Assembly (NCBI GenBank): GCA_951406725.2 | Contig: OX597817.1 | Location: forward strand, 58,404,001-58,468,000 | Length of the DNA stretch: 64,000 bases | Direction: 5' to 3' | DNA from: Octopus vulgaris | Lineage: Eukaryota | Part shown: positions 447 to 64,000 of the stretch, one piece after another | How the letters are laid out: each line of letters begins with the position of its first letter | How positions within the stretch are numbered: position 1 is the stretch's first letter | The notes under the pieces: model-generated | Database searches by the model: none | What the model was told of the DNA's origin: nothing | The model's input: the letters and a program-made list of their open reading frames with translations, nothing else | Position numbers and translations under genes: made by a program

Positions 447-1970
447 TACGTATGTGATAGTATGTCTCTCTCTCTTCAGCATTCAAGATAGTAAAGACGC
501 AACGCTTTCAAATATTCCCAGTAGAGAAGTATTTTAACCAAAGGTATTTTACTGGTGAACGTTCTTCGTAACCTTTTAATTTCTTCTATGAGACAGGATG
601 AGTCAGAAGCCCAAAGCTGTGAGCAGTAATCTAACCTGCTCAAGGCGACGAGCTGGCAGAAACGTTAGCACGCCGGGCGAAATGCTTAGCGGTATTTCGT
701 CTGCGTTACGTTGTGAGTTCAAATTCTGCCGAGGTCGACTTTGCCTTTCATCCTTTCGGGGTCGATAAATTAAGTACCAGTTACGCACTGGGGTCGATGT
801 AATCGACTTAATACCTATGTCTGTCCTTGTTTGTCCCCTCTGTGTTTAGCCCCTTGTGGGTAATAAAGAAATAAGTATTTCGTCTGCCGCTACGTTCTGA
901 GTTCAAATTCCGCCGAGGTCGACTTTGCCTTTCATCCTTTCGGGGTCGATTAAATAAGTACCAGTTACGCACTGGGGTCGATATAATCGACTTAATCCGT
1001 TTGTCTGTCCTTGTTTGTCCTCTCTGTGTTTAGCCCCTTGTAGGTAGTAAAGAAATGGGTATTTCGTATGTCTTTATGCTCTGAGTTCAAATTTCACCGA
1101 GGTCGACCTTGCCTTTCATCCTTTCGGGGTCGATAAATTAAGTACCAGTTGCGTACTAGGACGATTTAATCGACTGCCCCCCCACTACCCCCAAATTTCG
1201 GGCCTTGTGCCTAGAGTAGGAGCGAGTAATCTGACCTGCTCAGAACTCAGGCTTTCCATAGAGTAAGCCTAACTACAAAGGTTTGTAGGATCCATCCTAT
1301 GAGATGTCTACATTTAGAGGTCAGTCTGGTGATGTGGCTAAGGAAAGATGCATCAATTGACATGATTACTCCTAAGTCCCATATGTCATTAGCGCTCTGA
1401 ATCATTCTGTGTCAAATATTGTGATTTGTGTGCATTCCCTCTGTAACGAAGAACCTGAAATCTTGATGTATTAAATGTCCTTTTGTTTTAACCCACCTAT
1501 TGATAAATGAGGTTTAGCTCATTTTTGGAGTGTGACAGTATCTTCTGGAGTTTGGATAGCCATGGATATTTTTGCGCCATTGGCGTAACTCGTTATTTCG
1601 GATGAGTGCACTTGTGATACGTATGCGATAGTATCTCTCTTTCTCTCTCTCAAGATATTAGAGACGCAACGCTTTCAAATATTCCCAGTAGCTAGGTCTT
1701 TTAACCAAAGGTATTTATAATAAATAATTATAGTCCTAAAACCGTTCTCTGAGGCATACTACTTACTACGGAGTGAAAAACCATTTCCAGCAACAGATTG
1801 GCCCCTACCATGTAAGAAGTCAAAGAGCCATTCTCTGAGTTTTCCTGAGATACCAAGATTCTTTAACCTGTGACAGATGATTCCATGAACAATCTTGCCG
1901 AGCGCCTTAACAAAATCAAGGTATATACAGTCAATGTCCTTTCCTCTCAAGAGATTACTAAGAAAAGTTT
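447..1970 (-). pseudogene. Old, fragmented CR1-group LINE RT remnants (interrupted by a SINE)
   Basis: Minus-strand peptides SRLDYCSQLW, YWEYLKALRL and IYLDFVKALGKIVHGIICHRLKNLGISGKLREWL match the intact ORF2 at 52712-55708; segment 447-548 recurs at 1617-1716. Confidence 0.75.
643..1224 (+). mobile_element. Nin/Deu-domain-like SINE with three tandem core units
   Basis: Three units containing GTTCAAATT..GAGGTCGACTTTGCCTTTCATCCTTTCGGGGTCGAT..AAGTACCAG; 18-bp TSD AGTAATCT(A/G)ACCTGCTCA at 625-642 and 1225-1242. Confidence 0.85.
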
Positions 1971-1984
1971 TTCGGTGTGAAAAA

Positions 1985-3180: not shown

Positions 3181-3387
3181 TTCTTTTATTCTTTTTGATT
3201 GCGGTCATGCTGGAGCACCGCCTTTAGTCGAAGAAATGGACCCCAGTACTTATTCTTTGTTAGCTTAGTACTTATTCTATCGTACCCTTTTGCCGAACCG
3301 CTGAGTTACGGGGATATAAACACACCAACATCGGTGGTGGGACAAACACATACACAAATACATACATACATACACACATACATACAT

Positions 3388-3479
<92 letters not shown>

Positions 3480-3642
3480 GACAAGATTCTTTCAGTTTCC
3501 ATTCACCAAATCCACTCACAAGGTCTTGGTTGGCCCGAGACTGTAGTAGAATACACTTGCCCAAGGTGCCACGCAGTGGGACTGAACGCGGAGCCATGTT
3601 GTTGGGAAGCAAGCATTTTACCACACAGCCATGCCTGCACCC
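3181..3642 (-). mobile_element. tRNA-derived CORE-type SINE with internal microsatellite
   Basis: Head ..GTTCAGTCCCACTGCGTGGCACCTTGGGCAAGTG.., same family as 16085 and 29110; 3' end abuts a TA-rich array. Confidence 0.85.
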
Positions 3643-3736
3643 ATATATATATATATATATATATATACATACACTCGCACATATATACATACATACTTAC
3701 ATGCATATACACACACACACACATACATATATATAT

Positions 3737-5214: not shown

Positions 5215-7058
5215 CCTGCTCCCTCCATCTGTGGCGATGACAGGCATTACTCTCCCAGTCAGTCTCCTGCATATCAAAGGCCTTTAATGAGGACTTGACA
5301 CAGTCCTTAAATCGCAGCCTTGGTTTCTGCTGGGGTCTCTTTCCATTCACAAGTTCCCCATATAGCATCTGCTTAAGGATCCTGCTATCCTTCATTTTAA
5401 TAAGGTGTCCAGTCCAATGTAACTAACTAGCGCTTGTGCACCATCGCCTCAATACTCTCAAGATATCAGCTGTCCTCAGGACCTGTGTGTCTGGAGTTTT
5501 TAAGGTCCAGTCAACATTCAGAATGTGTCTGAGACATCTCTGATGAAAGCATTCAAGGACCCTTACATGATGTTTGTAAAGGATCCATGTTTTACATGAG
5601 TAAAGGAGTGTTGTCAGTATACATGCACGGTACACAGCAATTTTTGTTTGCCTTGTGATGCCATGCTGGGACCAGACACGAGACTGAAGAGACCGGAAGG
5701 AATCAGTTGCTCTCTGCAGCCTGAGAGATATTCCCTCATCCAGGGAGCAAGAACGGCTGAGTGTGCTGCCCAGGTAGACTAACTTGTCTACCATTTTCAG
5801 TATTGTTCCTTCAACCAAGATAGCTGATCCACACATGGATTTCCTGGTGCAGGCTGGAACATTACAACAGTCTTGTGCAGGCTAATGCTGAATCCAAATG
5901 CCTTGCAAGAAGCAGAAATACGATTCATAAGTATTTGCATGTCATCCACTGTATGAGTGACTAAGTCACAGTCATCTGCATAAAGGAGGTCATGAATAAG
6001 AGACTGGAAAACTTTTGAATTGGCAGCAAATCGGTGCAGATTAAAGTCGTGGCCAGAAGATCAATACTTGACACATATTCCCGAGAGCTAACCTTAGCAA
6101 AAGCATGAGTAAAAGCAGCAGCAAAGTATAAAGAAAAGAGAGTTGGAGCAAGGATGTCACCCTGCTTGACATATCCATTGTCCATCTACTTGATCGGAAG
6201 CCATATTGAGATTCAGATAGGACATCATTTACGAAACACCCATTCAGGCGGGTAACATGAATATTTGCCAGAACTTTGCCAGCAGCTGATAGTAGAGCAA
6301 TACCTCTGTAGTTACCACACATTGTTCTGGCTCCTTTTTCTTTATAGAGAGGAAGAATAATTGCATCCTTCCAGTGCTTAGGCATTGCACCATCCCTCCA
6401 GACTGCACTAATAAGTTCATGAAGAGACTGTATGATGTAATCACCACCAAATCGCAAGACCTCAGCACAAATTCCATCCTTTCCTTGTGCCCTACCGAGA
6501 TTCAGTTTACTTATTGCTGTCATTACCTCATCTAATAAAAGCGTAGAATTTAAAGAGGCGATGATAGCTCTTTGTTGCCTAGTATCAATCACTGTTTCAT
6601 CCACAACTTACTCATGCTTTAGGAGTTCAGAGGAGTGTTCAATCAAGCGATCTGTGATTTCTGTTGATTTAGTAAATGGAGTAGAAGACTCCTTGAAAAG
6701 CAAAGGAGATGATGCAGAGCTCTTTGGCCCATAAACTTGCTTCATACGATGGTAAAGCTTCTTGCTGTCATTTGCATCAGCAGCATCCTGAACATCACGA
6801 GCAATATCTTCCCACTAAGCGTTCTGCATCTTCCTGAGAGATCGCTGCAGTAGTGATTTTACACTGCTATAGTTGGCAAGTGCTAGATTTCGTTGCACAG
6901 CTGAAAGTCCTCTGTGTAGCAATACATTGTGGGCATGGCGCTTTACAGCTAATAATCGCTGAACTTCAGCATCATTTTCATCAAACCAGTCTCTGTGTCT
7001 GATAGTAGCATATCCCACTGTATTAGCAGCATATTGAAGAACCTGGTCACGAAAGATG
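5215..7058 (-). pseudogene. Degraded RTE (BovB-like) LINE
   Basis: Broken ORFs with DWFDEND, NYRGIALLSAAGK, GVKQG-like YVKQGDILAPTLF, YLGSTLS and KQMLYGEL..GKRP. Confidence 0.9.
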
Positions 7059-10272: not shown

Positions 10273-10289
10273 GTAAGTCTTGAAAGCTC

Positions 10290-10665
10290 TTACCCTTTAT
10301 TTGTTTCAGTCATTGGACAGCAGCCATGCTGTGATGCCGCCTTGAAAGGTTTTAGTCGAAAGAAATCAGCGACGTCAGTGCTTATTTTAAAGTCTGGTAC
10401 TTACCTCTCGCTCTCTTTTGCTGAAACCACTAAGTTAAGGTGACGTAACTACACTAACACCGGTTGACAAGCGTTGTGAAGTGACAAACAGAAACACAAC
10501 GACACACAAACATACATACAGTCATACGCAGTTTTTGCCTACCAAATTCATTCAGAAAGCTTTGGTTAGCCCAGTACTGTAGAAGAAGACATTCACCGAA
10601 GGTGCCACGCAGTGGGAATGAACTCAAATCTATGTGGTTTCAAAGCGCGCTTCGTAACCACACTG
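10290..10665 (-). mobile_element. Diverged CORE-type SINE in intron 1
   Basis: Similar to 16085-16542 along its length. Confidence 0.75.
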
Positions 10666-13538: not shown

Positions 13539-13844
13539 CGCAGCGTGCCACTTTGAGCAAGTGCCTTCTGCTCGAGCCCCGATCTGCTGAATGTCGAAGC
13601 CTTTGAGAAGTTTTACGAACAATTTCACTCGTTAAGGACCGAAGATGAAATCGGATTTAATAAAGCTGCTGATAATGGCGGCCTTTGGTGAAAGCAATTA
13701 GTTAGTATTGAGTGGAACAGCGTCTCTTATATTGTTCTGGACTGGTAGCGGTTGTTATGGATCTCCGTCGTCTGACGACGAGGATTCAGTTGTTTTGTCG
13801 ACAGAATTATCTGCTCCTGAATTACATATATATATATATACATA

Positions 13845-14065
13845 TTGGTTTCAAATTTTGGCACAAGGCAAGCAGTTTCGGGTGGGGCGGGGTGTAGGTC
13901 GATTACATTGACCCCAACACTCAACTGGTACTCATTTTATCATCTCTGAAAGGATGGAGTGCAAAGTGGACCTCGACGGAATTTGAACTCAGAGCACAAA
14001 GACGGATGAAATGCCACTAAGCATTTTGTCCGGCTTGCTAACGATTCTGCCAGCTCACCTCCTTA
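13845..14065 (-). mobile_element. Nin-like SINE
   Basis: Reverse complement of the 643-1224 family. Confidence 0.8.
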
Positions 14066-14150
14066 ATAACAACAGCAACAACAACAGAAACAACAACAAC
14101 AGCAACAACAATAATAATATAACTTGACCCTTTCTTCTTTATTTCTTCAG

Positions 14151-15059: not shown

Positions 15060-15249
15060 TGTGTGTATGTTTGTGTCTGTGTTTGCCCCCCCCCCAACAT
15101 CGCTTGACAACCGATGCTGGTGTGTTTACGTGGCCGTAACTTAGCGGTTCGGCAAAAGAGACCGATAGAATAAGTCCTTGAGTCGATTTGCTCGCCTAAA
15201 GGCGGTGCTCCAGCATGGCCACAGTCAAATGACTGAAACAAGTAAAAGA

Positions 15250-15250
<1 letters not shown>
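15060..15250 (+). mobile_element. CORE-type SINE 3' half
   Basis: Ends GGCGGTGCTCCAGCATGGCCACAGTCAAATGACTGAAACAAGTAAAAGAG then (TA)n. Confidence 0.85.
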
Positions 15251-15284
<34 letters not shown>

Positions 15285-15285
<1 letters not shown>

Positions 15286-15700
15286 TAGCAGTATCGCCCG
15301 GCGTTGCTCGGGTTTGTAAGGGAAATAACTATATAAGCATTTTTAGAGATGTAAAGTATAATAGCCATCTCAATATGGCTAACCACCACAAAGGCGGGGT
15401 GTTACTGTAGCTTTTTACGTTCTGAGATTTAATAATAAATTTTTAGAGAGTTACTTCCCTTATATATGCCAAAAATGCATTAAAAACGGGAAAAATTGAT
15501 GGTAAATTATTTTAAAAATCGTAGACTTATCATAGACGCGCGCTAATACCCAGAAGGGCTCGATATGAATCACGACTATAAGATACCCGGTTTTGGTTAA
15601 ACTGCAACGCAAAATGTGGGAGTAGTTAGGAATCTAAATCGTAGGAGACAGACAGCACACAACCTCACTTATATATATATATATATATATATATATCTAT
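15285..15700 (-). mobile_element. Non-autonomous Helitron
   Basis: Minus-strand 3' end CCCGAGCAACGCCGGG hairpin followed by CTAG|T; homologous to 36126-36627. Confidence 0.8.
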
Positions 15701-16084: not shown

Positions 16085-16311
16085 TACTCTTTACTTTTTC
16101 ACTTGCTTCAGTTATTTGACTGCGGCCATGCTGGAGCACCGCCTTTAGTCGAGAAAATCGACCCCAGGACTTATTCTTTGTTAGCCTAGTACTTAATCTA
16201 TCGGTCTCTTTTGCCGAACCGCTAAGTTACGGGGACGTAAACACACCAGCATCGGTTGTCAAGCGATGTTGGGGGGACAAACACAGACACACAAACATAT
16301 ATATACACACA

Positions 16312-16354
<43 letters not shown>

Positions 16355-16542
16355 GTATACATACATATACATATATACGACGGGCTTCTTTCAGTTTCCG
16401 TCTACCAAATCCACTCACAAGGCTTTGGTCGGCCCGTGGCTATAGTAGAAGACACATGCCCAAGGTGCAACGCAGTGGGACTGAACCCGGAGCCATGTAT
16501 TTGATAAGCAAGCTACTTACCACACAGCCACTCCTGAGCCTA
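16085..16542 (-). mobile_element. Full-length CORE-type SINE
   Basis: tRNA-like head (TGGCTGTGTGG A box, GGTTCAGTCCC B box), CORE-like CCTTGGGCA.GTG, internal microsatellite, LINE-like tail. Confidence 0.9.
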
Positions 16543-16983
16543 TATGTAGAGTGCATATAAAAAATTTCGGCTAATGACGTAATGTAATAGGTGTGTATGT
16601 AAGTGCACGGATTAGTTTACCACTAAAACTCCGGCTTGAACTGGATCTGAAACAAAGGACGTGTAGCTGCTTGTCAAAGATGGCTATAAGTGGTTCATCA
16701 TTGAGCGTGTTGATCTACATTAGGAAGAGAGAATGAACAGACAAAACACGTGATATCACTTTAGAGCATACAATTTATAATACGGACATAATCGCAGAGT
16801 GGTTATAGTAAGCACAGGATTAAGAAATAATGCGAAAAGTCTCTTACAGTTGTTTCCAGAATAGCTGAGAATGTGGAGCAAATCTCCTATGATTAAAAAT
16901 TTCCATGTGAGACAGCTATTCCAAATACAGAGTCGGCCAAAAATCACGCACTAAAATATTGATGTTTTTTTAAAAAATATATA

Positions 16984-24724: not shown

Positions 24725-25815
24725 ATCAGCTTTTGAGTTCAAATCCCGCCAGGCTTGAATTTACCTCTTCTTAAATTTCGAGGATGGGGTTTCTATCATG
24801 AATAAATAAAGTACCAGTCGTCTACTGGGGTCGATATAATCGATTATGCTTCCTCCCTCCACCGCCGTTTTGTCTTGTATTTAGTTACGATCATTTTCTG
24901 CATTCTGCCTTAAATTTCATCGAGGCCATCTTTAACTTTCATCCCTCTGGGGTTGATAATATAAGATACTAGCCAAGGACTGGGGTGAAGGGTGGATTCA
25001 ATCAAATGAGCCACACCCTTAATTTTGCGGCTTTGTGCCTATATTAGAAACATTTATCATTATTTCGGACATTATCATCACTATCGTCAATTATTTCATT
25101 ATCGTCGTCAACATCATTATCATCGTCATCGTCCTTCATTATCGTCAACTTCATTATCATCATCAACTTCAATATCGTCGGCATAATTCTTCTTCTTATT
25201 GGTAGCGAAAGTCGAAGCAATGAAATACCAATCTAGCAGATCAACTCCGAAATCTGGTTTTAATTCTGCGATGGAGTAATTTCAGTTCATGTTCGTCTTT
25301 CGTGGCCTCGGGAGATGGATTTATACCACAACATCTTATTTCCTTCATCACTTAGAATTTGCAAACATTCCCATCAATGAAACCAGCAATTATTATTGCC
25401 ATCATCACGAAACATTAAGGCGGTGAGTTGGCAGAATCGTTAGCGCGCCGGACGAAATGCTTAGAGGTATTTCGCCCGTCGCTACGTTGAGTTCAAATTC
25501 CGCCGGGGTAGACTTTACCTTTCATCCTTTCGGGGTCGATAAAATAAGTACCAGTTGAACACTGGGGTCGATGTAAACGACTCATCCCCTCCATAAAAAT
25601 TGCTGCCCTTGTGGCAAAATTTGAAAACATTATCACGAACATTAATGTTCGGTCGATTGGCAGAATCGTTAGAGCGTCAGAAAAAATGCCCTGTGATATT
25701 TCTTCTGGCTTTTTACGTTCTGAGTTCAAATCCCACTGAAATCTTTGCCATTCCTTCTTCCGAGTTCAATAAAATGAAGAACTAGTCAAGTATTGGAGTC
25801 GATGTAATCGACTGC
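24725..25815 (+). mobile_element. Cluster of diverged Nin-like SINE copies
   Basis: Core motifs near 24735, 24910, 25490 and 25720. Confidence 0.7.
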
Positions 25816-27852: not shown

Positions 27853-27914
27853 GAATAGACAGAGTATAGAAGCCGAGGAAAGCTGTGCGTGTTCTGTGTT
27901 GGGAGTAATTGTCA

Positions 27915-28490
27915 ACCGAAGCCTTGTGAGTGGAGTTGGTAGACGGAAACTGAAAGAAGCGGCGAGCTGGCAGAAACGTTAGCAAGCCAGGCGAGATGCT
28001 TTAAAGTATTTCGTCTGCCGTTACGTTCTGAGTTCAAATTCCGCCGAGGTCGCCTTTGCCTTTCATCCTTTCGGGGTTGATAAATTAAGTACCAGTTACG
28101 CACTTAATCCCTTTGTCTGTCCTTGTTTGTCCCCTCTATGTTTAGCCCCTTGTGAGCAATAAATAAATAAGGAAACTGAAAGAAGCCTCCGTCTGCGTGT
28201 ATGTGTGTGAATGTGTGTGTTTGTTCACCCACGGCTTGACAACCGGTGTTGGCGTGTTTACGTTTCCGTATCCTAGCGATTCGGCAAAAGGGTGCGATAG
28301 AATAAGGATTCGGCTTACAAAAAAGAAAAAAAGAAGAAAAAAACATCAAGAAAAAATGAAGACAAAAACGAAAAAAAAAAAAAAAAGACAAAAAGCAAGA
28401 TAAGTCATGGAGTGGATTCATTCGACTAAAATTTCTTCAAGGCGGTGCCCCAGCATGGCCGCAGTCTAATGCCTGAAACAAGACAGAAGA
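27915..28490 (+). mobile_element. CORE-type SINE with a nested Nin-like SINE (27961-28170)
   Basis: 16-bp TSD GGAAACTGAAAGAAGC at 27945-27960 and 28171-28186. Confidence 0.85.
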
Positions 28491-28644
28491 TAAAAAAAAA
28501 ATTTTTTAAAAAAACAAAAAAGAAACCCTGAGACATTTGATGGCATAAAAGATGCACGGACGTGTTAGACGCACCTCAATTTCAGCAGTGAAAATAAAAA
28601 AAAAAAGAAAAACAGTCTGGGTACATTAAAGTATGTAATATATT

Positions 28645-28915
28645 CTTTTCTACTCTAGGCACAAGGCCAGAAATTTTTGGGGAGGGGGCCAGTCGATTAG
28701 ATCGACCCCAGTACGCAACTGGTACTTAATTTATCGACCCTGAAAGCATGACAGTCGACCTCGGCGGAATTTGAACACTGAACGTAAATACAGACGAAAT
28801 ACCTATTTCTTTACTACCCACAAGGGGATAAACACAGAGCGGACAAACAAGAACAGACAAACGGATTAAGTCAATTATATCGACCCCAGTGCGTAACTGG
28901 TACTTAATTTAATCG
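28645..28915 (-). mobile_element. Nin-like SINE, two tandem units
   Basis: Reverse complement of the 950-1224 region. Confidence 0.8.
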
Positions 28916-29109: not shown

Positions 29110-29525
29110 ATAGGCGTAGGAGTGGCTGTGTGGTAAGTAGCTTGCTTACGAACCACATGGTTCCGGGTTCAGTCCCACAGCGTGGCACCTTGGGCAAGTG
29201 TCTGCTGCTATAGCCTCGGGCCGACCAAAACCTTGTGAGTGGATTTGGTAGACGGAAACTGAAGGAAGCCCGTCGTATATATGTATATATATGTATGTAT
29301 GTGTGTGTATATGTTTGTGTGTCGGTGTTTGTCCCCACAACATCGCTTGACAACCGATGCTGGTGTGTTTACGTCCCCGTAACTTAGCGGTTCGGCGAAA
29401 GAGACCGATAGAATAAGTACTAGGCTTACAAAGAATAAGTCCTAGAGTCGATTTGCTCGACTAAAGGTGGTGCTCCAGCATGGCCACAGTCAAATGACTG
29501 AAACAAGTAAAAGAGTAAAAGAGAG
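29110..29525 (+). mobile_element. Full-length CORE-type SINE
   Basis: Same structure as 16085-16542. Confidence 0.9.
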
Positions 29526-52711: not shown

Positions 52712-55708
52712 TCATGGAGGCTTTCTAGCAACTGCTATTTGGTGCATGAGAGAGTTCGATGCAGCTGCCCTCATCTGCCCCTCCTGCCGTGAAGTTGGTT
52801 CATCTGGGACACCTGACAGGAAGAGATCCAGCTTCATTTTAAAGACATCTGTATCCACCCCATGCAGGTCTCTCAGGTTCTTCGGGAGGATATTGAAGAG
52901 CTGTGGGCCTCGGAAGCCCAGGCTATCACAGAATCTTGTCCTACATCTTGATGGCAGGTTTGGAGTCCTAGGCACCACGCAGTGGCGCCCAGTTCTGGCA
53001 TTTGCGTAACTCTCGATGCCAAAGTTCAGGACACTTCCCTCCAGGATCTTCCAGATGTATATTATGGCATATCTTTCCCGCCTACGCTCCAGGGAATATA
53101 ATTTTAATCTCTTGAGTCTTTCCCAGTAGCTTACATTCTGCATAGAGGCTATCTTCTTTGTGTAGCTTCGTTGGATCGCCTCAAGTTCTGTGATCAACTT
53201 GACACTGGATGGTGACCATAGCTGAGAGCAATAGTCAAAGTGGCTTAGGACAAGTGTCTTCCAGAGGACCATCATGGTTTCTTGTTCTCTTGTTCTAAAG
53301 GTTCTAAGAATCCATCCAGCCAGCCGTCTACATTTCATTGTCAGTTTAGCAACATGTACATGAAAGGTCGCGTCATCACTCATGTGAATACCCAGGTCAC
53401 GCACTGATTGTGCCTCTGGGATTGCAATCCCTCCGGGTCCAGTGTATTCATTGGGTATTGCATTCAGTTTTGCATGCTGATAGTATAAAGCTTGAAACTT
53501 TCCAGCATTGAACTGCATGCTATTCTTTTCAGCCCACTTGTATATTTCGTCCAGCTCACATTGCAGGTGTTTAGTGTCCTCAGGGTTCTGTATTGCCTGT
53601 GAAACTTTTGTATCATCTGCATAACTTGTGATCGTGGCTCTCTGCGTGGCTGAGGGCATGTCTGAGAGGGCCATTATGAACAGTAGTGGTCCCAGAACAG
53701 TGCCCTGCGGAACACCGCTCACTATTTGTGTGTTAATGGAGGTGGCCCCATTGGCTACTACCACCTGACTTCTATCCTTCAGAAAGTCATGAAGCCATTC
53801 TCCCAGTTTTCCAACTATGTTGAGATCACGCAGTTTGTGACATATCATTCCATGATCGACTTTATCAAAGGCCTTTGCAAAGTCGAGATATATCACTTCC
53901 ACATTTGAGTGGTTGAGCAGCCGTTTCAGCACCCAGTCATAGTGTTGTAGGAGCTGAGTTAAACAGCTTCTCCCTGGTCGGAAACCATGTTGGGTGTCGG
54001 GCAGCAAGTCATTCTCTTCAAGGAAGGTGATCAGCTTCCTTCTGACTATTCGTTCCATGACCTTGCTGATGTGTGAGGTCAGAGAGATAGGTCTATAGTT
54101 CTTGGCTTCCGCTCTGCTACCTCCTTTATGAATGGGGCATATTTTACCTTCCTTCAGTTTTCCTGGAAGTTTGCCAGCTGCAAGGAAGCTCTGAAAGAGG
54201 AACTGCAGTGGTCTTGCTAGGACTCTCTTACATGCTTTTAGGAGGATTGCCGGGAATCCATCGGGGCCAGTAGCTGAGTCTGTTTTCATTTCATCTATAG
54301 CCTTGGTTACATCGTCTTCCTTTATATCGATGTAATCTATCGTCGCCGCCTCTGATTTTATATCTGCAGTGGTAAAAAAGTCAGTTGGATTGGTGATTTG
54401 GAGATGCCCAAGGGGTGGAGTGAAAACACTCTTGAATTGCTCATTCAGTATTTCACTTACCCTCATTGGTTTTCCTGTAAGTGTGCCATCCTTTTCGAGG
54501 AGTGGCCCTATTCTACAGTGCACTGTAGCTGTTTCTTTGGCATACCTGTAGAAAGCTCTGGGGTTAGATTTTATGTTTTCTATAGCCCAGGCTTCTTTGT
54601 CTGCTCTTTCTTTTTCATGGGAGAGTTGCAGACATTTTTCGATTTCCAACAGTTTTATTTTTAGGCGGGACTTTTCACTGCTTTCAATCTGTTTGTTTAG
54701 GCGATTTGAAAATTTCGTACGCCGTCTCATTAAAATTTTCCTCTCTCTGGGGATTTTGTTCTTGTGTACAGTGGCCTTTCTCTCTGGGACACATTTGTAG
54801 CATATGGCTTGCATTACAGACATGAATTGTTGAAGTTTCACGTCGATGTCTGGCGAGGAGAGACATTCAGGCCAGTTTTGTTTGAGGATCTCTTTCTCAA
54901 TTTGTTTCCAGTTTGCCTTATGGTAGTTCAAGCTGGAAAGATTTTGAGGGTTTCTTGTAGGCTGCATGTCCGTGCTCTCTTTTGGCCCGTACATGGTCAG
55001 CTCTATCATGTTGTGATCCGAGAGTAGTGTCGGTGTCACTTTCACATTATGGATGAGATCCATGTCATTTGTGAAGCAGAGATCCAGTGTGTTACCTGCC
55101 CTGGTTGGTTGGAGTATTACCTGCTCCATGTACAGGGTGTTGATGAGGTTCAGGAGGGACCTCGCCTGTCCTCGTTCACATCTTGTCATTCCTGGGAGAG
55201 AAAGGCCCTCGGGCCATCTGACATTGGGCAGATTGAAGTCTCCCATAAGAAGCACACCTATGTGTTGTTCTAATGTGGTTAGAATTTCTTCTATTTTTAT
55301 AAGGCAGTCTTCGAACTTGCCCACATGGCTTGGGGCATCTGGAGGGCGATATGTAGCACACACAACTACATCAAGTTGCCTAATATGTACAATTAGTGTG
55401 TCACACACCGAGTTTGAGTATGACAAGAGGACCTGGGGTGTGAGGTCCTCACGGATGTACATAGCAACACCTCCATGACTCCTTTCTTTCCTGTCGGTCC
55501 GTAGTACAGCATACTGTGGTATGTGTAACTCCGCATCTGCTATGTCCGGTTTCAGGTGCGTTTCTGTAAGTGCTATGCATAAGGCTTGATTGCATGCAAC
55601 AAAGTCTCTCAGGAACGGGATCTTTGTCCTGTTACTGAGTGTTTGCAGTCCTCTGATGTTCAGTAGGAGTATCGAGGTGAGGTGTACGTTGTTGCCGGCG
55701 GTGTCCAT
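52712..55708 (-). CDS. LINE ORF2: AP endonuclease plus reverse transcriptase, intact (998 aa from the first ATG)
   Basis: LNIRGL, LTETHL, YRPP, GDFN, LDL, SDH; [27 protein letters not shown]. The track start at 55816 is a GTG; the first ATG is at 55708. Confidence 0.95.
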
Positions 55709-56571
55709 CCTGTGTCTGTTTGCTGTGGTGGTCTGGTATATAGTGGGTAGTCCCACCTGCGGGCTTGGGTTTGATGAAGCCAGGTCAGCTGCTGTACAAT
55801 CTTTTGTGCCATGCACAAAAAAGATTGTTGCTCAGCAGCTGCTCTTTCGACAACATCATGTTGGCTGTTTGTGGCGCGCACAACATCTGCGTACCTCCGC
55901 TTTGGGGCAGGTGGTGCGTAGTCCATCCCTTTTCTTTGTGTTGATGGTTTGTCCATCTGCCTCGTGTCTCTGTGGCAGGGTCCCCGATGTGCAAAGCGGC
56001 AGCCTGCACCTTCCTTTCCGTGCCAGCAGGAACCTCTCAGGTAGAACATACACACCCGTGTGCGCTGTTTGGTTCCATCCTTTGCGGTTCCACTTCTACT
56101 CCTGGTTGTTTCACTCTTTGGTCCTGCTTGAGCTTTTTCTTTTCCTTTAGCTCTTCCAGTCCTTCTTTTAGTTCTTCTTCCTCCCTCTACCTCTTCACCG
56201 GGTTCTCCGTCTCCATGGCCCTTGCTGCCGGTTGGAGAACTTGCACCTGGGTTCACTTCCCGGGCAGGTTTCTCATTCAAAACCTCCTCCTGGGCGTCCA
56301 CCAGGTGGGGGTGACTTCTTTCATCGTCTCCATTCTTGCCATCTTTGCCCCGCTCGTTCTCAAAGATGGCATCAAGTGCGCCAATGTGCGACCGTACAAG
56401 CGCATATGAGCGCACGAATTCCTGTCTCTTTCGCTCCATCTGAGCCGCTGTCCTCTTGTAGCCTCTGCTCTTCAGCGCAGCCGCAATCACCTCGCTAGGG
56501 CTATCTCCGCCGGCGCACTCCCATGCTCGTACGAATAAATCCAGCTCGTCACGTCTCCATGCTCTGGACAT
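55660..56571 (-). CDS. LINE ORF1, 303 aa: Myb/SANT (trihelix)-like N-terminus, basic linker, CCCH zinc finger
   Basis: WRRDELDLFVRAW..IAAALKSRGYKRTAAQMERK..F..Y; CMFYLRGSCWHGKEGAGCRFAH (C-x7-C-x8-C-x3-H). Confidence 0.8.
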   Translation of the reverse strand: MSRAWRRDELDLFVRAWECAGGDSPSEVIAAALKSRGYKRTAAQMERKRQEFVRSYALVRSHIGALDAIFENERGKDGKNGDDERSHPHLVDAQEEVLNEKPAREVNPGASSPTGSKGHGDGEPGEEVEGGRRTKRRTGRAKGKEKAQAGPKSETTRSRSGTAKDGTKQRTRVCMFYLRGSCWHGKEGAGCRFAHRGPCHRDTRQMDKPSTQRKGMDYAPPAPKRRYADVVRATNSQHDVVERAAAEQQSFLCMAQKIVQQLTWLHQTQARRWDYPLYTRPPQQTDTGWTPPATTYTSPRYSY

Positions 56572-56619
56572 GCTGGATAATCCGTCTATCCGTTTATCTA
56601 TCTAATTATGTTCGAGAGA

Positions 56620-57780
56620 AGACAGGAAGATATTAAGGCTAATTAGAAGATAGAGTACTTGAAAAAGAAATATTAACAATATTAACGTTTGTGTAAAAAC
56701 GTTATTTGGGTAAAAACGTTATTTAATCTTAAGGCTAATTAGGAGATAGAGTATCTGAAAATATATTAGCAATATTAATATTATATTAGAGTGTGGGTAA
56801 AAAAACGTTATTTAATCTTAAGGCTAATTTGGAGATAGAGTATCTGAAAATATATTAGCAATATTAATATTAAGGCTAATTAGAAGACAGAGTATCTGAA
56901 AAATTATATATACAATATTAAGCAATATTAACCGTTATTTAATTTAATCTTAAGGCTAATTAGACGTTATTAATATTAAACGTTATTTAATTTAATCTTA
57001 AGGCTAATTAGAAGATAGAGTATCTGAAAATATATTAGCAATATTAATATTATATTAGAGTGTGGATAAAAACGTTATTTAATCTTAAGGCTAATCAGGA
57101 GATAGAGTATCTGAAAATATATTAGCAATGTTAATATTATATTAGAGTGTGGGTAATATTAAACGTTATTTAATTTAATCTTAAGGCTAATTAGAAGATA
57201 GAGTATCTGAAGAAGTATTAACAATATTAAAACAATATTAAATGTTATTTAATTTAATCTTAAGGCTAATTAACAATAATTATTAACAATATTAAACAAT
57301 ATTAAACGTTATTTAATTTAATCCTAAGGCTAATTAACAATAATTATTAACAATATTAGACAATATTAAACGTTATTTAATTTAATCTTAAGGCTAATTA
57401 ACAGTAATTATTAACAATATTAAACAATATTAAACGTTATTTAATTTAATCCTAAGGCTAATTAACAATAATTATTAACAATATTAAACGTTATTTAATT
57501 TAATCCTAAGGCTAATTAGACGTTATTAATATTAAACGTTATTTAATTTAATCTTAAGGCTAATTAGAAGATAGAGTATCTGAAAAATTATTAACAATAT
57601 TAAAACAATATTAAACGTTATTTAATTTAATCTTAAGGCTAATTAACAATAATTATTAACAATATTAAACTATATTAAACGTTATTTAATTTAATCCTAA
57701 GGCTAATTTGACGGTATCAATATTAAACGTTATTTAATTTAATCTTAAGGCTAATTAGAAGATAGAGTATCTGGAAAATT
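56620..57780. repeat. AT-rich modular tandem array immediately upstream of ORF1
   Basis: About 17 copies of AAGGCTAAT, mostly as AAACGTTATTTAAT(TTAAT)CTTAAGGCTAATT, alternating with AGAAGATAGAGTATCTGAA or AACAATAATTATTAACAATATT modules. Confidence 0.9.
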
Positions 57781-58577
57781 ATTATATCGAGAACAGTTAT
57801 TGAAAATGTAAACAAACCAAATGACGATCGCAACTTTAACTAAGATGTGGGCCTAAGTGAAAGATAAAATAGAATAATAAATAAAATATGAAATAGATGA
57901 AATTGATACTTAATCCAACAATGTGGTCTGGATAATTTTTTTGGTTTACGGGATTTTTTTCGGGAGAGATGCTTCTTTTTTCTTTCTTGCAGGAGATAAC
58001 TTGATTCAGTTATTTTTGCACCATGTGCGTTTCGGCGAAAATGAAAATTACTGTGTATATGTATATATTTATATATATATTTTTAAAAATATTTTTAACC
58101 AAAGTGTTGTAGTGATCTCTATGACTTAGAGTTTTACGTTTTGCAACTACAGTGGGTTATTTCGCCGTTCTATGCAGACTTTTTCACAGAGCAAAGGCAA
58201 TCACGTCTTTCTCTGCTGAAAACGGAACCATATATATCATATATATACATATATATATATATACGTATATATACATATATATATATATACATACATATAC
58301 ATATATATACATATATATATATACATATACATATATATACATATACATATATATATATACATATATATACATATACATATATATATACATATATATACAT
58401 ATACATATATATATATACATATATATACATATACATATATATATATATAATATATATACATATACATATATATATATACATATATATACATATACATATA
58501 TATACATATATATATATACATATATATACATATATATACATATACATATATACATATACATATATATACATATACAT

Positions 58578-59197: not shown

Positions 59198-60533
<1,336 letters not shown>

Positions 60534-60545
60534 TATATATATATT

Positions 60546-60901
<356 letters not shown>

Positions 60902-60940
60902 CATATATATATACATATATATATATACATATATATATAC

Positions 60941-61011
<71 letters not shown>

Positions 61012-61030
61012 CATATATATATTTACATAT

Positions 61031-61072
<42 letters not shown>

Positions 61073-61076
61073 TATA

Positions 61077-61185
<109 letters not shown>

Positions 61186-61790
61186 TCACCACAGTGAATA
61201 TAATAACGAATTATATAAATTTATATATGAGGATAATATCGATATTTAAATGTCGAAATTATCAAGTGGCCAGCATGAAAGAAATGTCGATATTATCCTC
61301 ATATATAAATTTATATAATTCGTTATTATATTCACTGCGGTGCTTATTTTAACCATATCGTACTTATGCGGTGATTTGGCGGGCGATTCAAACTGGCTGT
61401 GTCCATACGTATGTATGTGCGACGCTCGTATATGTAAGTATATCGTTTGCTGTGCATATATGTATCTGTATTTATGTACCCTTGATATATTCAATTTATG
61501 ACGGTAAAGCTTATCTAAAGCAGAACCAGAAATCCTTGGATCTTGAATTATTCAATAATTTTTGCTTGTATGTTTTGTCCCTCCGCTTTACCTCATGGTG
61601 CGATATGAACATTTAACGTGGTTTTATAGTCAGAGTTTCGACTGCTATTTCGGCGTGTTGGTGTCTTTTAGACACCCTCATTTTTAATTGTTAAAAATGT
61701 TCTTACCTTTGTAAGGTATTTCTTTCATGCTGGCCACTTGATAATTTCGACACTTAAATATCGATATAATCCTCATATATAAATTTATAC
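61186..61790. mobile_element. Penelope-like remnant with an inverted terminal segment
   Basis: ~56-bp inverted arms at 61187-61241 and 61286-61342; spacer is the reverse complement of 61720-61760; direct repeat at 61286 and 61760. Confidence 0.65.
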
Positions 61791-61791
61791 A

Positions 61792-61868
<77 letters not shown>

Positions 61869-61928
61869 ACATATATATATATATATATACATATATATAT
61901 ACATATATATATACATATATATATATAC

Positions 61929-61961
<33 letters not shown>

Positions 61962-62000
61962 CATATATATATACATATATATATACATATATATATACAC

Positions 62001-62043
<43 letters not shown>

Positions 62044-62061
62044 TATATACATATATATATA

Positions 62062-62095
<34 letters not shown>

Positions 62096-62114
62096 TATAT
62101 ACACATATATATAT

Positions 62115-62179
<65 letters not shown>

Positions 62180-62382
62180 TACATATATATATACATATAT
62201 ACATATATATATATATATACATACATATATATATACATATATATATACATATATATACATATACATATATATACATATACATATATATACATATACATAT
62301 ATATACATATATATATACATATATATATATACATATATATATATACATATATATACATATATATATATACATATATATATAC

Positions 62383-62413
<31 letters not shown>

Positions 62414-62867: not shown

Positions 62868-64000
62868 AATCCTTAAATCCTTAAAAATGTTTTAGCCCGA
62901 AGGCCGCGGCCATGCTGGGGCACCACCGCTGATTGAGCTACACTAGTTTGTGAATCCACCTCTGATACGTGGCACTTGATCAACAAGGGAGTTCGATGCT
63001 GCTTCCCGCATCCGTGTCTCCTGTCGTGAGGTAGGTTCATCTGGGACTCCCAACAAGAAGAGATCCAGTTTAGTTTTAAAGAAACCCACATCCACACCAT
63101 GTAAGTCTCTCAGGCATTTAGGGAGGATGTTAAAGAGCTGTGGTCCTCTGAAACCCAAGCTGTTGCAGTATCTGGACCTGTATTTTGATGGTGATGTTGG
63201 AATCCTTGGCACCACGCAGCGGCGCCCCGTTCTGCGGTTGGAGTAACTTTGAATGCCAAAGTTTGGGACAAGACCCTCCAGGATTTTCCAGATGTATATC
63301 ACTGCATATCTCTCCCGCCTCCGCTCCAGGGAGAAGAGGTTTAATACCTTCAGTCTTTCCCAGTAGCTGACATTTTGCATTGAGACGATTTTCTTTGTGT
63401 AGCTTCTCTGTGTTGCTTCGAGTTCTGCTGTTTGTTTTATATTGTGTGGTGACCAAAGTTGGGAGCAGTAGTCCAAGCGGCTGAGGACAAATGTTTTCCA
63501 TAGGACCATCAGTGTCTCCTTCTCTCTTGTTCTGAAAGTTCGGAGAATCCATCCAGCTAGCCGTCTGCATTTTATCACCAGATTAGCAATATGCATTTGG
63601 AAAGATGCATCATTGCTCATGTCAATGCCCAGGTCACGCACTGATTTTGACTCAGGGATTGCAATTCTTCCTGGGCCAGTGTATCCAGTCTTCACGTCAT
63701 TTACCTTTGTGTGCCAGTAGCGCAGGGCCTGGAATTTACCTGCATTAAACTGCATGTTGTTGTCCTCAGCCCACCTGTATATTGTGTCCAGCTCATGTTG
63801 CAGATGCGCAATATTTTCAGGGTTTTGTATTGCGTGGGAGACTTTTGTGTCATCTGCATAGCTAGCAAGGGTGGTCATCGTAGCAACTGAAGGCATGTCT
63901 GAAAGGGCCACTATGAACATCAGTGGCCCCAAGACAGTGCCCTGTGGGACACCGCTTGTTATTTGCGTTTCCCTGGAGGTGGCTCCATTGCTCACAACTG
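62868..64000 (-). mobile_element. CR1-group LINE, subfamily C; ORF2 open to the window edge
   Basis: 350-aa ORF with [19 protein letters not shown]; (TTTAAGGA)n tail abutting a TA array. Confidence 0.95.

What the first reader, a model, noticed from the sequence alone, without database searches (positions are those of the whole stretch)
15195..15250. SINE-LINE partnership: shared two-hairpin 3' end with compensatory changes
Seen: the SINE tail GGCGGTGC-TCCA-GCATGGCC-A-CAGTC-AAAT-GACTG-AAAC matches the LINE A end (60264-60302) GGCGGTGC-CCCA-GCATGGCC-A-CAGCT-CATA-AGCTG-AAAC. Stem 2 changes sequence but keeps pairing: CAGTC/GACTG (SINE), CAGCT/AGCTG (A, A1), GGCC-TTCG-GGCT with a UUCG loop (C, ~62890) and GGCCA-ATAC-TGGCC (B, ~39870). 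Stem 1 keeps an internal G-G mismatch. SINE copies at 3181, 15250 and 35192 also end in TA arrays. Known: stringent LINEs mobilise SINEs that share their 3' stem-loop. Inference: this CR1-group family drives the CORE-type SINE, and the double hairpin is the RT recognition element.
Basis: partly seen in the sequence, partly recalled or inferred. Interest (0 to 1): 0.7.

Follow-up and report, generated by a model that had tools for sequence, protein, structure and literature searches.

The report
Octopus SINE borrows LINE two-hairpin tail
A short octopus repeat (SINE) ends in the same 39-base, predicted two-hairpin tail as a CR1-type retrotransposon (LINE), so it likely borrows that LINE lineage's reverse transcriptase: a well-known kind of partnership, seen here in a new animal group.

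Summary
Observation confirmed. A ~420-nt SINE (7 copies) and CR1-group LINEs (6 copies, 3 main lineages) share a 39-nt 3' end. A covariance model finds 13 significant sites, all at these ends, and SINE-LINE homology is confined to the tail. The sense strand folds into stem 1 (G·G mismatch, G·U) plus a 5-bp stem 2. Compensation is real but thin: about three independent double changes in stem 2. B's apparent four shrink when realigned. The host is an octopod. The SINE's terminal repeat differs from every LINE here and it keeps a pair that family A changed, so the partner is likely A's ancestor or sister, not A itself. The type is known: bivalve SINE-CR1 pairs with compensatory stem-loops are published (PMC4824008), with an unrelated tail sequence. 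RT recognition is inferred, not tested. The side findings are more unusual: all six CR1 copies, and one RTE, sit inside (TA)n arrays, and ORF1 has a predicted Myb/SANT-like domain plus a CCCH finger. Verdict: new member of a known kind.

The parts
15085..15250 (+). Focal SINE copy, 5'-truncated at the internal (TG)n: 3' body and tail
15201..15220 (+). Stem 1: 3 bp, G·G mismatch, 4 bp (starting with G·U), 4-nt loop
15222..15235 (+). Stem 2: 5 bp, 4-nt loop; followed by AAAC (15236-15239) and an A-rich terminal repeat (15240-15250)
15251..15284 (.). (TA)n array at the SINE's 3' flank
29110..29529 (+). Full-length SINE copy: A/B-box-like head, CCTTGGGCAAG, internal TA/TG microsatellite, body, hairpin tail at 29466-29504
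16088..16543 (-). Full-length SINE copy; ends in (TG)n, not TA
3181..3649 (-). Full-length SINE copy; stem 2 lost; TA-rich on both sides
10287..10663 (-). Old, diverged SINE copy (60-69% to the others)
28194..28490 (+). Older SINE copy with the LINE-type stem-1 loop (CCCA)
34964..35190 (+). 5'-truncated SINE copy ending at a TA array
52625..58230 (-). Full-length CR1-group LINE A, TA arrays at both junctions; hairpin tail 52647-52685; (AATC)n end; AT-rich tandem repeats in the 5' region 56630-57784
52712..55831 (-). ORF2, open for 1039 codons (Met at 42): AP endonuclease + reverse transcriptase (P0001)
55660..56571 (-). ORF1 (P0002 from Met 11): predicted Myb/SANT-like three-helix N-terminus, CCCH finger
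48262..50789 (-). 5'-truncated LINE A copy in TA arrays (tail 48283-48321)
59198..60327 (+).
46325..47450 (-). LINE A1: mosaic copy (5' 600 nt about 99% to A, 3' 500 nt about 87%), tail 46346-46384
62868..64000 (-). LINE C (74% aa to A), runs off the window; tail 62889-62927
39845..40777 (-). LINE B (35% aa to A), tail 39862-39910 with extended stem 1
41503..45549 (-). Unrelated RTE-like LINE, also with TA arrays at both ends, without the hairpin tail (control)

Best explanation
The SINE carries a 39-nt 3' tail shared with a CR1-group LINE lineage, and this tail likely folds in the RNA into two hairpins that the LINE's ORF2 protein would bind to copy the SINE in trans. Shown: shared sequence only at the 3' end; pairing kept through G·U intermediates and about three double changes; stem 1 far more conserved in sequence than its neighbours. 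Inferred: (1) a Pol III-type SINE captured the 3' UTR of an ancestor or sister of family A, after the A/C split and before A's last stem-2 change; (2) stem 1 (G·G mismatch, CCA loop) is the identity element and stem 2 is read by shape or spacing; (3) the basic helix between EN and RT (about residues 355-385 of P0001) is the tail-binding region, by analogy with zebrafish L2; (4) TPRT starts in the terminal repeat after AAAC.
For: Homology of the full SINE to the 5.6-kb LINE is one 46-column hit at the LINE's 3' end (E 1e-6); none to the RTE. CM hits with E<0.001: 13, all SINE (7) or CR1 (6) 3' ends; 7 of them were not in the training set. Sense versus antisense folding: -17.9/-11.0 (SINE), -17.5/-12.5 (A), -15.9/-11.8 (C), -22.9/-14.1 (B) kcal/mol; z -4.0/-1.0, -3.4/-0.4, -0.6/+0.4, -3.9/-0.9. 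A versus C: stem 1 19/20 identical, upstream UTR 15/29, ORF end 106/150, stem 2 plus AAAC 10/19 with 4 of 5 pairs kept. SINE versus A: all 4 arm differences are doubly compensated; null P 0.005 (any substitution) or 10/210 (transitions only). Seven hand-picked rows: 5 pairs changed on both sides, 0/500 shuffles. In two public runs, 65 and 97 contigs align to the LINE 3' end and continue with the SINE's A-rich repeat (table 7). Conserved basic stretch between EN and RT in 27 relatives. Precedent: loop specificity with exchangeable stems (PMC4176376); bulge and U-U mismatch needed in UnaL2 (PMC1636434 abstract).
Against: On all 13 window ends the automatic alignment gives only 2 doubly changed pairs, no better than shuffles (392/500; covariation score 49/500) (B is misaligned there). 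The 7-row test used rows I chose and a structure derived from them. Terminal repeats differ: SINE A-rich AAGTAAAAG-type, A AATC, A1 AAAATC, C AAGGATTT, B TTCTAAGTTA. Young SINE copies are 90-93% identical and A copies 96-98.5%, so their bursts need not overlap. C's fold alone is not significant (z -0.6). No binding or mobilisation data. B has a different stem-1 loop yet the same core, so the core alone may not discriminate partners.
Confidence: 0.8

Rival explanations
1. Family A itself, as it now stands, is the SINE's current driver.
For: A has the closest tail (31/39 nt), an open ORF2 and young copies.
Against: Different terminal repeat; the SINE shares stem-2 pair 5 (C-G) with C and B, where A has U-A; SINE copies are older.
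Confidence: 0.35
2. The tail is inherited, but the 'compensatory' changes arise without selection on RNA shape, by template switching within short inverted repeats, and the paired stem 2 has no role.
For: Only about three events, two of them adjacent; LINE copies here are mosaics, so exchange is common; SINE copies break stem 2 freely after insertion.
Against: G·U intermediates at three positions and sense-strand bias fit RNA rather than DNA pairing; loops vary while pairing persists across lineages 35% identical in protein.
Confidence: 0.12
3. Chance similarity or convergence of GC-rich hairpins.
For: The 20-nt motif has about 120 exact matches in metagenome contigs, none of the 119 loci examined being a LINE or SINE.
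Against: 11 matches against 0.07 expected in the window; always the same place in the element; E 1e-6 against the whole LINE.
Confidence: 0.01
4. B has the stem-1 core because it swapped tails with the A/C lineage inside the octopus genome, not because the module is ancestral to the subclade.
For: B and A are separated by a node holding 113 of 145 sequences; ancestry would predict the module in many relatives, and only one could be checked.
Against: That one relative (L120, 40% identical, host unknown) shows the same layout just before its terminal repeat, though weakly: E 0.058 in its 3' region with an octopus-only model and absent from the list over 98.5 kb.
Confidence: 0.35

Closest known systems
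BivaV-SINE2 / BivaCORE-SINE1 with CR1-14_CGi (Nishihara et al. 2016, PMC4824008; passages and parts of the supplement read)
   Same: Mollusc tRNA-SINEs sharing a 3' tail with a CR1-group LINE, with predicted stem-loops and compensatory changes.
   Different: The bivalve tail is AT-rich and unlike this one by eye; here two tandem GC-rich hairpins with a G·G mismatch, in an octopod.
Bivalve HCD-SINE / CR1 and CR1-Zenon partnerships (Martelossi et al. 2024, PMC11481361; passages and Suppl. Fig. 1 text read)
   Same: Shared 3' ends of 35-61 bp at 72-95% identity; this pair (39-49 nt, 79-84%) falls in that range.
   Different: None of the five tail alignments matches; 'octopus' has 0 occurrences in its main text.
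UnaL2/UnaSINE and ZfL2-1/-2 stringent L2 systems (PMC1636434 abstract; PMC4176376 passages and section 13)
   Same: 3' stem-loop with an internal mismatch; loop gives specificity, stem exchangeable; tail-binding region between EN and RT.
   Different: L2 clade, single stem-loop, experimentally shown; here CR1-group, two hairpins, no experiment.
Octopus SINEs OK, OR1, OR2 (Ohshima and Okada 1994; paper not held; named in PMC4824008 and PMC4758252)
   Same: tRNA-derived octopus SINEs; OR1 or OR2 is listed as a CORE-SINE. This family is probably one of them (inference).
   Different: Identity could not be tested. The passages of the SINE/LINE pair table shown for PMC3747384 have no octopus entry ('octopus' 0 occurrences).
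Microsatellite-targeting non-LTR elements (PMC4640811 passages)
   Same: Insertion inside simple repeats.
   Different: That paper places most target-specific families in early-branched, Tx1 and R1 groups; this is a CR1-group element, and targeting is not shown.

Membership tests
tRNA-derived SINE | [quoted passage not shown] | tested here: inconclusive
   A/B-box-like words seen by eye in 4 full copies; ARAGORN 0 genes and Rfam 0 hits
tRNA-derived SINE | Short, dispersed, non-coding, ending in a simple repeat | tested here: met
   About 420 nt, 7 dispersed copies, A-rich terminal repeat
tRNA-derived SINE | Target-site duplications | not tested
   Flanks are often microsatellites; not examined
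CORE-SINE | Conserved CCTTGGG core word after the head | tested here: met
   Present in 3 of 4 full copies, one mismatch in the fourth; word named in PMC5786205 section 21, which notes the Ceph domain has it too
CORE-SINE | Alignment over the whole 45-60-bp CORE domain | not testable with these tools
   No usable reference sequence in a tool; by eye only a short likeness to BivaCORE consensuses
Octopus OK/OR1/OR2 | Identity to the published consensus | not testable with these tools
   Paper not held; SINEBase supplements unreadable
CR1-group LINE | ORF2 with AP endonuclease and RT, 5'-truncated copies, short tandem-repeat end | tested here: met
   Pfam Exo_endo_phos_2 E 6e-12 and RVT_1 E 2.5e-30
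CR1-group LINE | RT phylogeny with named clade references (CR1 versus CR1-Zenon versus L2) | not testable with these tools
   Relatives are nearly all unnamed; the CR1 label rests on recalled C-terminal motifs; only 30% identical to the RTE-like element here
Stringent SINE-LINE pair | Homology confined to the 3' tail | tested here: met
Stringent SINE-LINE pair | Conserved 3' stem-loop | tested here: met
   Predicted only; weak on all 13 ends
Stringent SINE-LINE pair (with family A specifically) | Shared 3' terminal repeat | tested here: not met
   SINE repeat differs from A, A1, C and B; so A itself is not filed as the partner
Stringent SINE-LINE pair | Trans-mobilisation dependent on the tail | not testable with these tools
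   Needs a cell assay
Target-specific non-LTR element | Most independent copies in the same target repeat | tested here: inconclusive
   6 of 6 3' and 5 of 5 visible 5' junctions in TA arrays, but one cluster, and an RTE does the same

The most novel reading that the evidence does not exclude
This octopod CR1-group lineage is a (TA)n-targeting retrotransposon, outside the clades where targeting is usual, with a Myb/SANT-plus-CCCH ORF1 that fits none of the described ORF1 types. Its two-hairpin tail is an ancient module of the whole subclade (stem 1 identity, stem 2 shape), which the SINE hijacks. Targeting would come from the Myb-like domain or from read-through (UA)n RNA pairing with nicked (TA)n DNA, building LINE-TA-LINE arrays.
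Probability: 0.25. Interest if true: 0.6.

Novelty: new member of a known kind. Interest (0 to 1): 0.33.

Why it matters
It names a likely LINE partner lineage for an abundant octopus SINE, for which I found no published partner in the searches made (Repbase and Dfam could not be searched). It also supplies a compact test system: an open ORF2 and a 39-nt tail with natural variants that separate a sequence-conserved hairpin from a shape-conserved one. The structural work I read on stringent recognition is all on L2 elements with one hairpin. The principle is not new. If TA targeting and the Myb-like ORF1 hold up, they would bear on how simple-repeat-rich cephalopod genomes grow.

Tried and rejected
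No whole genome is held, so no genome-wide covariation or junction count. Exact motif scans: 1 viral and 118 metagenome loci, 0 of 119 with LINE or SINE homology, so chance. Related-locus scans of viral contigs: none. Of 61 LINE-bearing contigs from genome contigs, 28 had a hit to the ORF2 C-terminus, none had the octopus motif at up to 2 mismatches, and only L120 both belongs to the subclade and has its 3' end. My descriptor match for L120 (1 of 28 loci; 8 of 5000 shuffles) was written after seeing L120 and is optimistic; the leave-out model did not list it over 98.5 kb. Model R1 included L120, so one search is circular. Read-laying showed 40 variant rows, none in the hairpins, with 195 rows hidden, so it says nothing on hairpin variation; it did not test TA junctions. 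No RNA holder listed. ESM Atlas: no usable hit for ORF1. PDB sequence search: only L1 and R2 proteins. Foldseek gave no match at E<=0.001 for the ORF1 N-terminus. Earlier-findings look-ups returned nothing. Rejected by eye: Meta or V domain in this SINE; homology to the bivalve CR1-Zenon tail; RTE as partner. CR1-Zenon was considered and left open: PMC10294476 reports it reduced or absent in cephalopods.

Full report
Observation. The quoted sequences are in the window as described. The stem-1 pattern has 11 matches at up to 3 mismatches against 0.07 expected; ten are SINE or LINE 3' ends and one (43900) lies inside an RTE ORF. A covariance model built from 7 rows (6 from the window, plus L120) finds 13 window sites with E below 0.001: seven SINE ends and six CR1-group LINE ends, and nothing at the second SINE family or the RTE. 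The full SINE hits the full 5.6-kb LINE once, in its last 65 bases (46 columns, 82.6%, E 1e-6), and does not hit the RTE.

Host and parts. No genome is held. The nearest named ORF2 relative is from Argonauta hians (58%) and the only ORF1 hit in that database is from Octopus vulgaris (a member of its cluster is 40% identical over the whole length), so the host is an octopod (inference). Twenty listed runs from 12 studies and ten organism labels hold at least half of the LINE's words, one of them a possible source of this DNA. The SINE is about 420 nt: a head with A/B-box-like words, CCTTGGGCAAG, an internal TA/TG microsatellite, a body, the hairpin tail and an A-rich repeat. Three copies are 90-93% identical, the rest 60-85%. 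ARAGORN and Rfam find nothing, so tRNA origin is by eye. LINE A is full length at 52625-58230 (-), with an open 1039-codon ORF2 (endonuclease and RT). A1, C (74% aa) and B (35% aa) are relatives. A versus C differences by codon position are 66/48/141 over 346 codons, as for coding lineages under selection. The CR1-group label rests on domain content and recalled C-terminal motifs; no named clade reference was available.

Structure. All four lineages fold on the sense strand into stem 1 (3 bp, G·G, 4 or more bp) and stem 2, more stably than the antisense strand; z is -3.4 to -4.0 for SINE, A and B but only -0.6 for C. G·G is present in 13 of 13 ends. Stem 1 is conserved in sequence (A versus C 19/20, against 15/29 just upstream), while stem 2 with AAAC is 10/19 identical yet keeps 4 of 5 pairs. 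In the most economical register the stem-2 pairs are, for SINE/A/C/B: pair 2 AU/AU/GU/GC, pair 3 GC in all, pair 4 UA/CG/CG/CG, pair 5 CG/UA/CG/CG, and pair 1 CG/CG/mismatch/mismatch. That is three double changes, each explicable as one event, with G·U states seen in C and in copy A48. The statistics are mixed: 5 doubly changed pairs and 0/500 shuffles on 7 chosen rows, but 2 pairs and 392/500 on the automatic alignment of all 13 ends. For SINE versus A the null probability is 0.005, or 0.048 if only transitions are allowed.

Who is the partner? The SINE shares pairs 1-2 with A, shares pair 5 with C and B, and has its own pair 4. One older copy (28441) keeps the LINE's CCCA loop. Its terminal repeat matches none of the LINEs here. 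I infer capture from an ancestor or sister of A. In runs X1 and X3, 65 and 97 contigs align to the LINE 3' end and then continue with the SINE-type A-rich repeat, so the shared tail is not peculiar to this window.

Mechanism. By analogy with zebrafish L2, where ORF2p reads the loop, tolerates stem exchange and binds through a basic region between EN and RT (PMC4176376, passages and section 13), and with eel UnaL2, where a bulge and a U-U mismatch are needed (PMC1636434, abstract), I infer that stem 1 is the identity element and stem 2 a shape or spacing element. A basic stretch at about residues 355-385 is conserved in 27 aligned relatives and is the candidate binder. None of this was tested.

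How old is the module? B is far from A and C in a tree of 145 sequences (common node 113 leaves) yet keeps the stem-1 core. One host-contaminant contig of the same subclade, L120, shows the same layout just before its terminal repeat (z -2.3). An octopus-only model ranks that site first in L120's 3' region at E 0.058 but does not list it over 98.5 kb. This is a weak lead; a tail swap inside the octopus genome remains possible.

What is known. PMC4824008 (passages, parts of the supplement) already reports bivalve CORE- and V-SINEs sharing stem-loop tails with compensatory changes with CR1-14_CGi. PMC11481361 (passages, Suppl. Fig. 1 text) extends this to seven partnerships. The bivalve tails differ in sequence. 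I also read passages of PMC4758252, PMC5786205 (and section 21), PMC5804259, PMC10294476, PMC3531059, PMC3747384, PMC4640811, and the abstract plus a term search of PMC4120745. The 1994 octopus SINE paper is not held and SINEBase supplements could not be read; these, Repbase and Dfam may already name this SINE and its partner. Searches listed no paper on an octopus SINE-CR1 pair. The SINE works like a stringent-type parasite; membership in CORE-SINEs and identity with OK/OR1/OR2 are untested beyond one short word.

Side findings. All six CR1 copies have TA arrays at the 3' end and all five visible 5' junctions do too; background is 6% of positions in 1-38000 and 15% in the whole window. An unrelated RTE in the same cluster does the same, and only 2-3 of 7 SINE copies do, so a local hot spot is as likely as family-specific targeting. 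Most known target-specific families lie in other groups (PMC4640811). ORF1's N-terminus matches Myb_DNA-bind_4 below the curated cut-off (E 8e-4; 6 of 20 aligned members at E<=0.1), is modelled as three helices (mean pLDDT 83), and its best structural matches are mostly Myb/SANT/TEA/trihelix domains at Z 7-8, rmsd 1.8 over 55 residues for LUX. Such Z values can reflect a common helical arrangement. A CCCH finger follows. The ORF1 survey PMC4120745 has 0 occurrences of Myb, SANT or CCCH, and one search listed no paper on such an ORF1.

Verdict. A real, ordinary-type SINE-LINE tail partnership in an octopod, with modest natural covariation: new member of a known kind, interest 0.33. The bolder reading (TA-targeting CR1 with a Myb-like ORF1 and an ancient two-hairpin module) has probability about 0.25 and would deserve 0.6.

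Noticed in passing
window 39100-64000: Cluster of seven LINE copies (six CR1-group, one RTE-like), each embedded in (TA)n arrays of 0.7-2.5 kb; the array between the two most similar A copies (50790-52623) is 99.5% pure TA, the others 67-90%.
   Followed up: partly
window 55660-56571 (-): LINE ORF1 with a predicted Myb/SANT-like N-terminal domain and a CCCH finger; only 33 relatives among 1.84 billion representatives.
   Followed up: partly
window 46325-47450 (-) and 59198-60327 (+): A1 and A59 are 5'-truncated at the same position within 1 nt, and both are mosaics: A1's 5' 600 nt is about 99% to A but its 3' 500 nt about 87%; A59 diverges in the middle. Suggests template switching or gene conversion, or a truncation hot spot.
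   Followed up: partly
window 56630-57784: The LINE's long AT-rich 5' region holds nested tandem repeats (periods of about 32-267 nt).
   Followed up: no
window 642-1219, 13842-14067, 25417-25813, 27959-28171, 28623-28915, 31260-31438, 32399-32610: A second SINE family with at least two different tails and tandem partial copies; it lacks the two-hairpin tail and matches no LINE end in the window.
   Followed up: partly
window 27900-28490: A copy of the second SINE family is inserted into the middle of an older copy of the hairpin-tailed SINE.
   Followed up: no
L120:2326-2367: Eukaryotic LINE contig inside a bacterial MAG with a similar two-hairpin 3' layout; 61 such LINE-bearing contigs were found in genome contigs.
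   Followed up: partly
window 60613-62384: Inverted duplication of about 670 bp inside the TA array between LINE A59 and LINE C, ending in a short non-repetitive segment.
   Followed up: no
window 15275-15688, 36117-36628, 36929-37148: Another dispersed repeat, with a 102-bp internal tandem unit, starts right after the focal SINE's TA array.
   Followed up: no
window 485-1983 (-) and 6143-6595 (-): Old RT relics of other LINEs, the first interrupted by the second SINE family.
   Followed up: no
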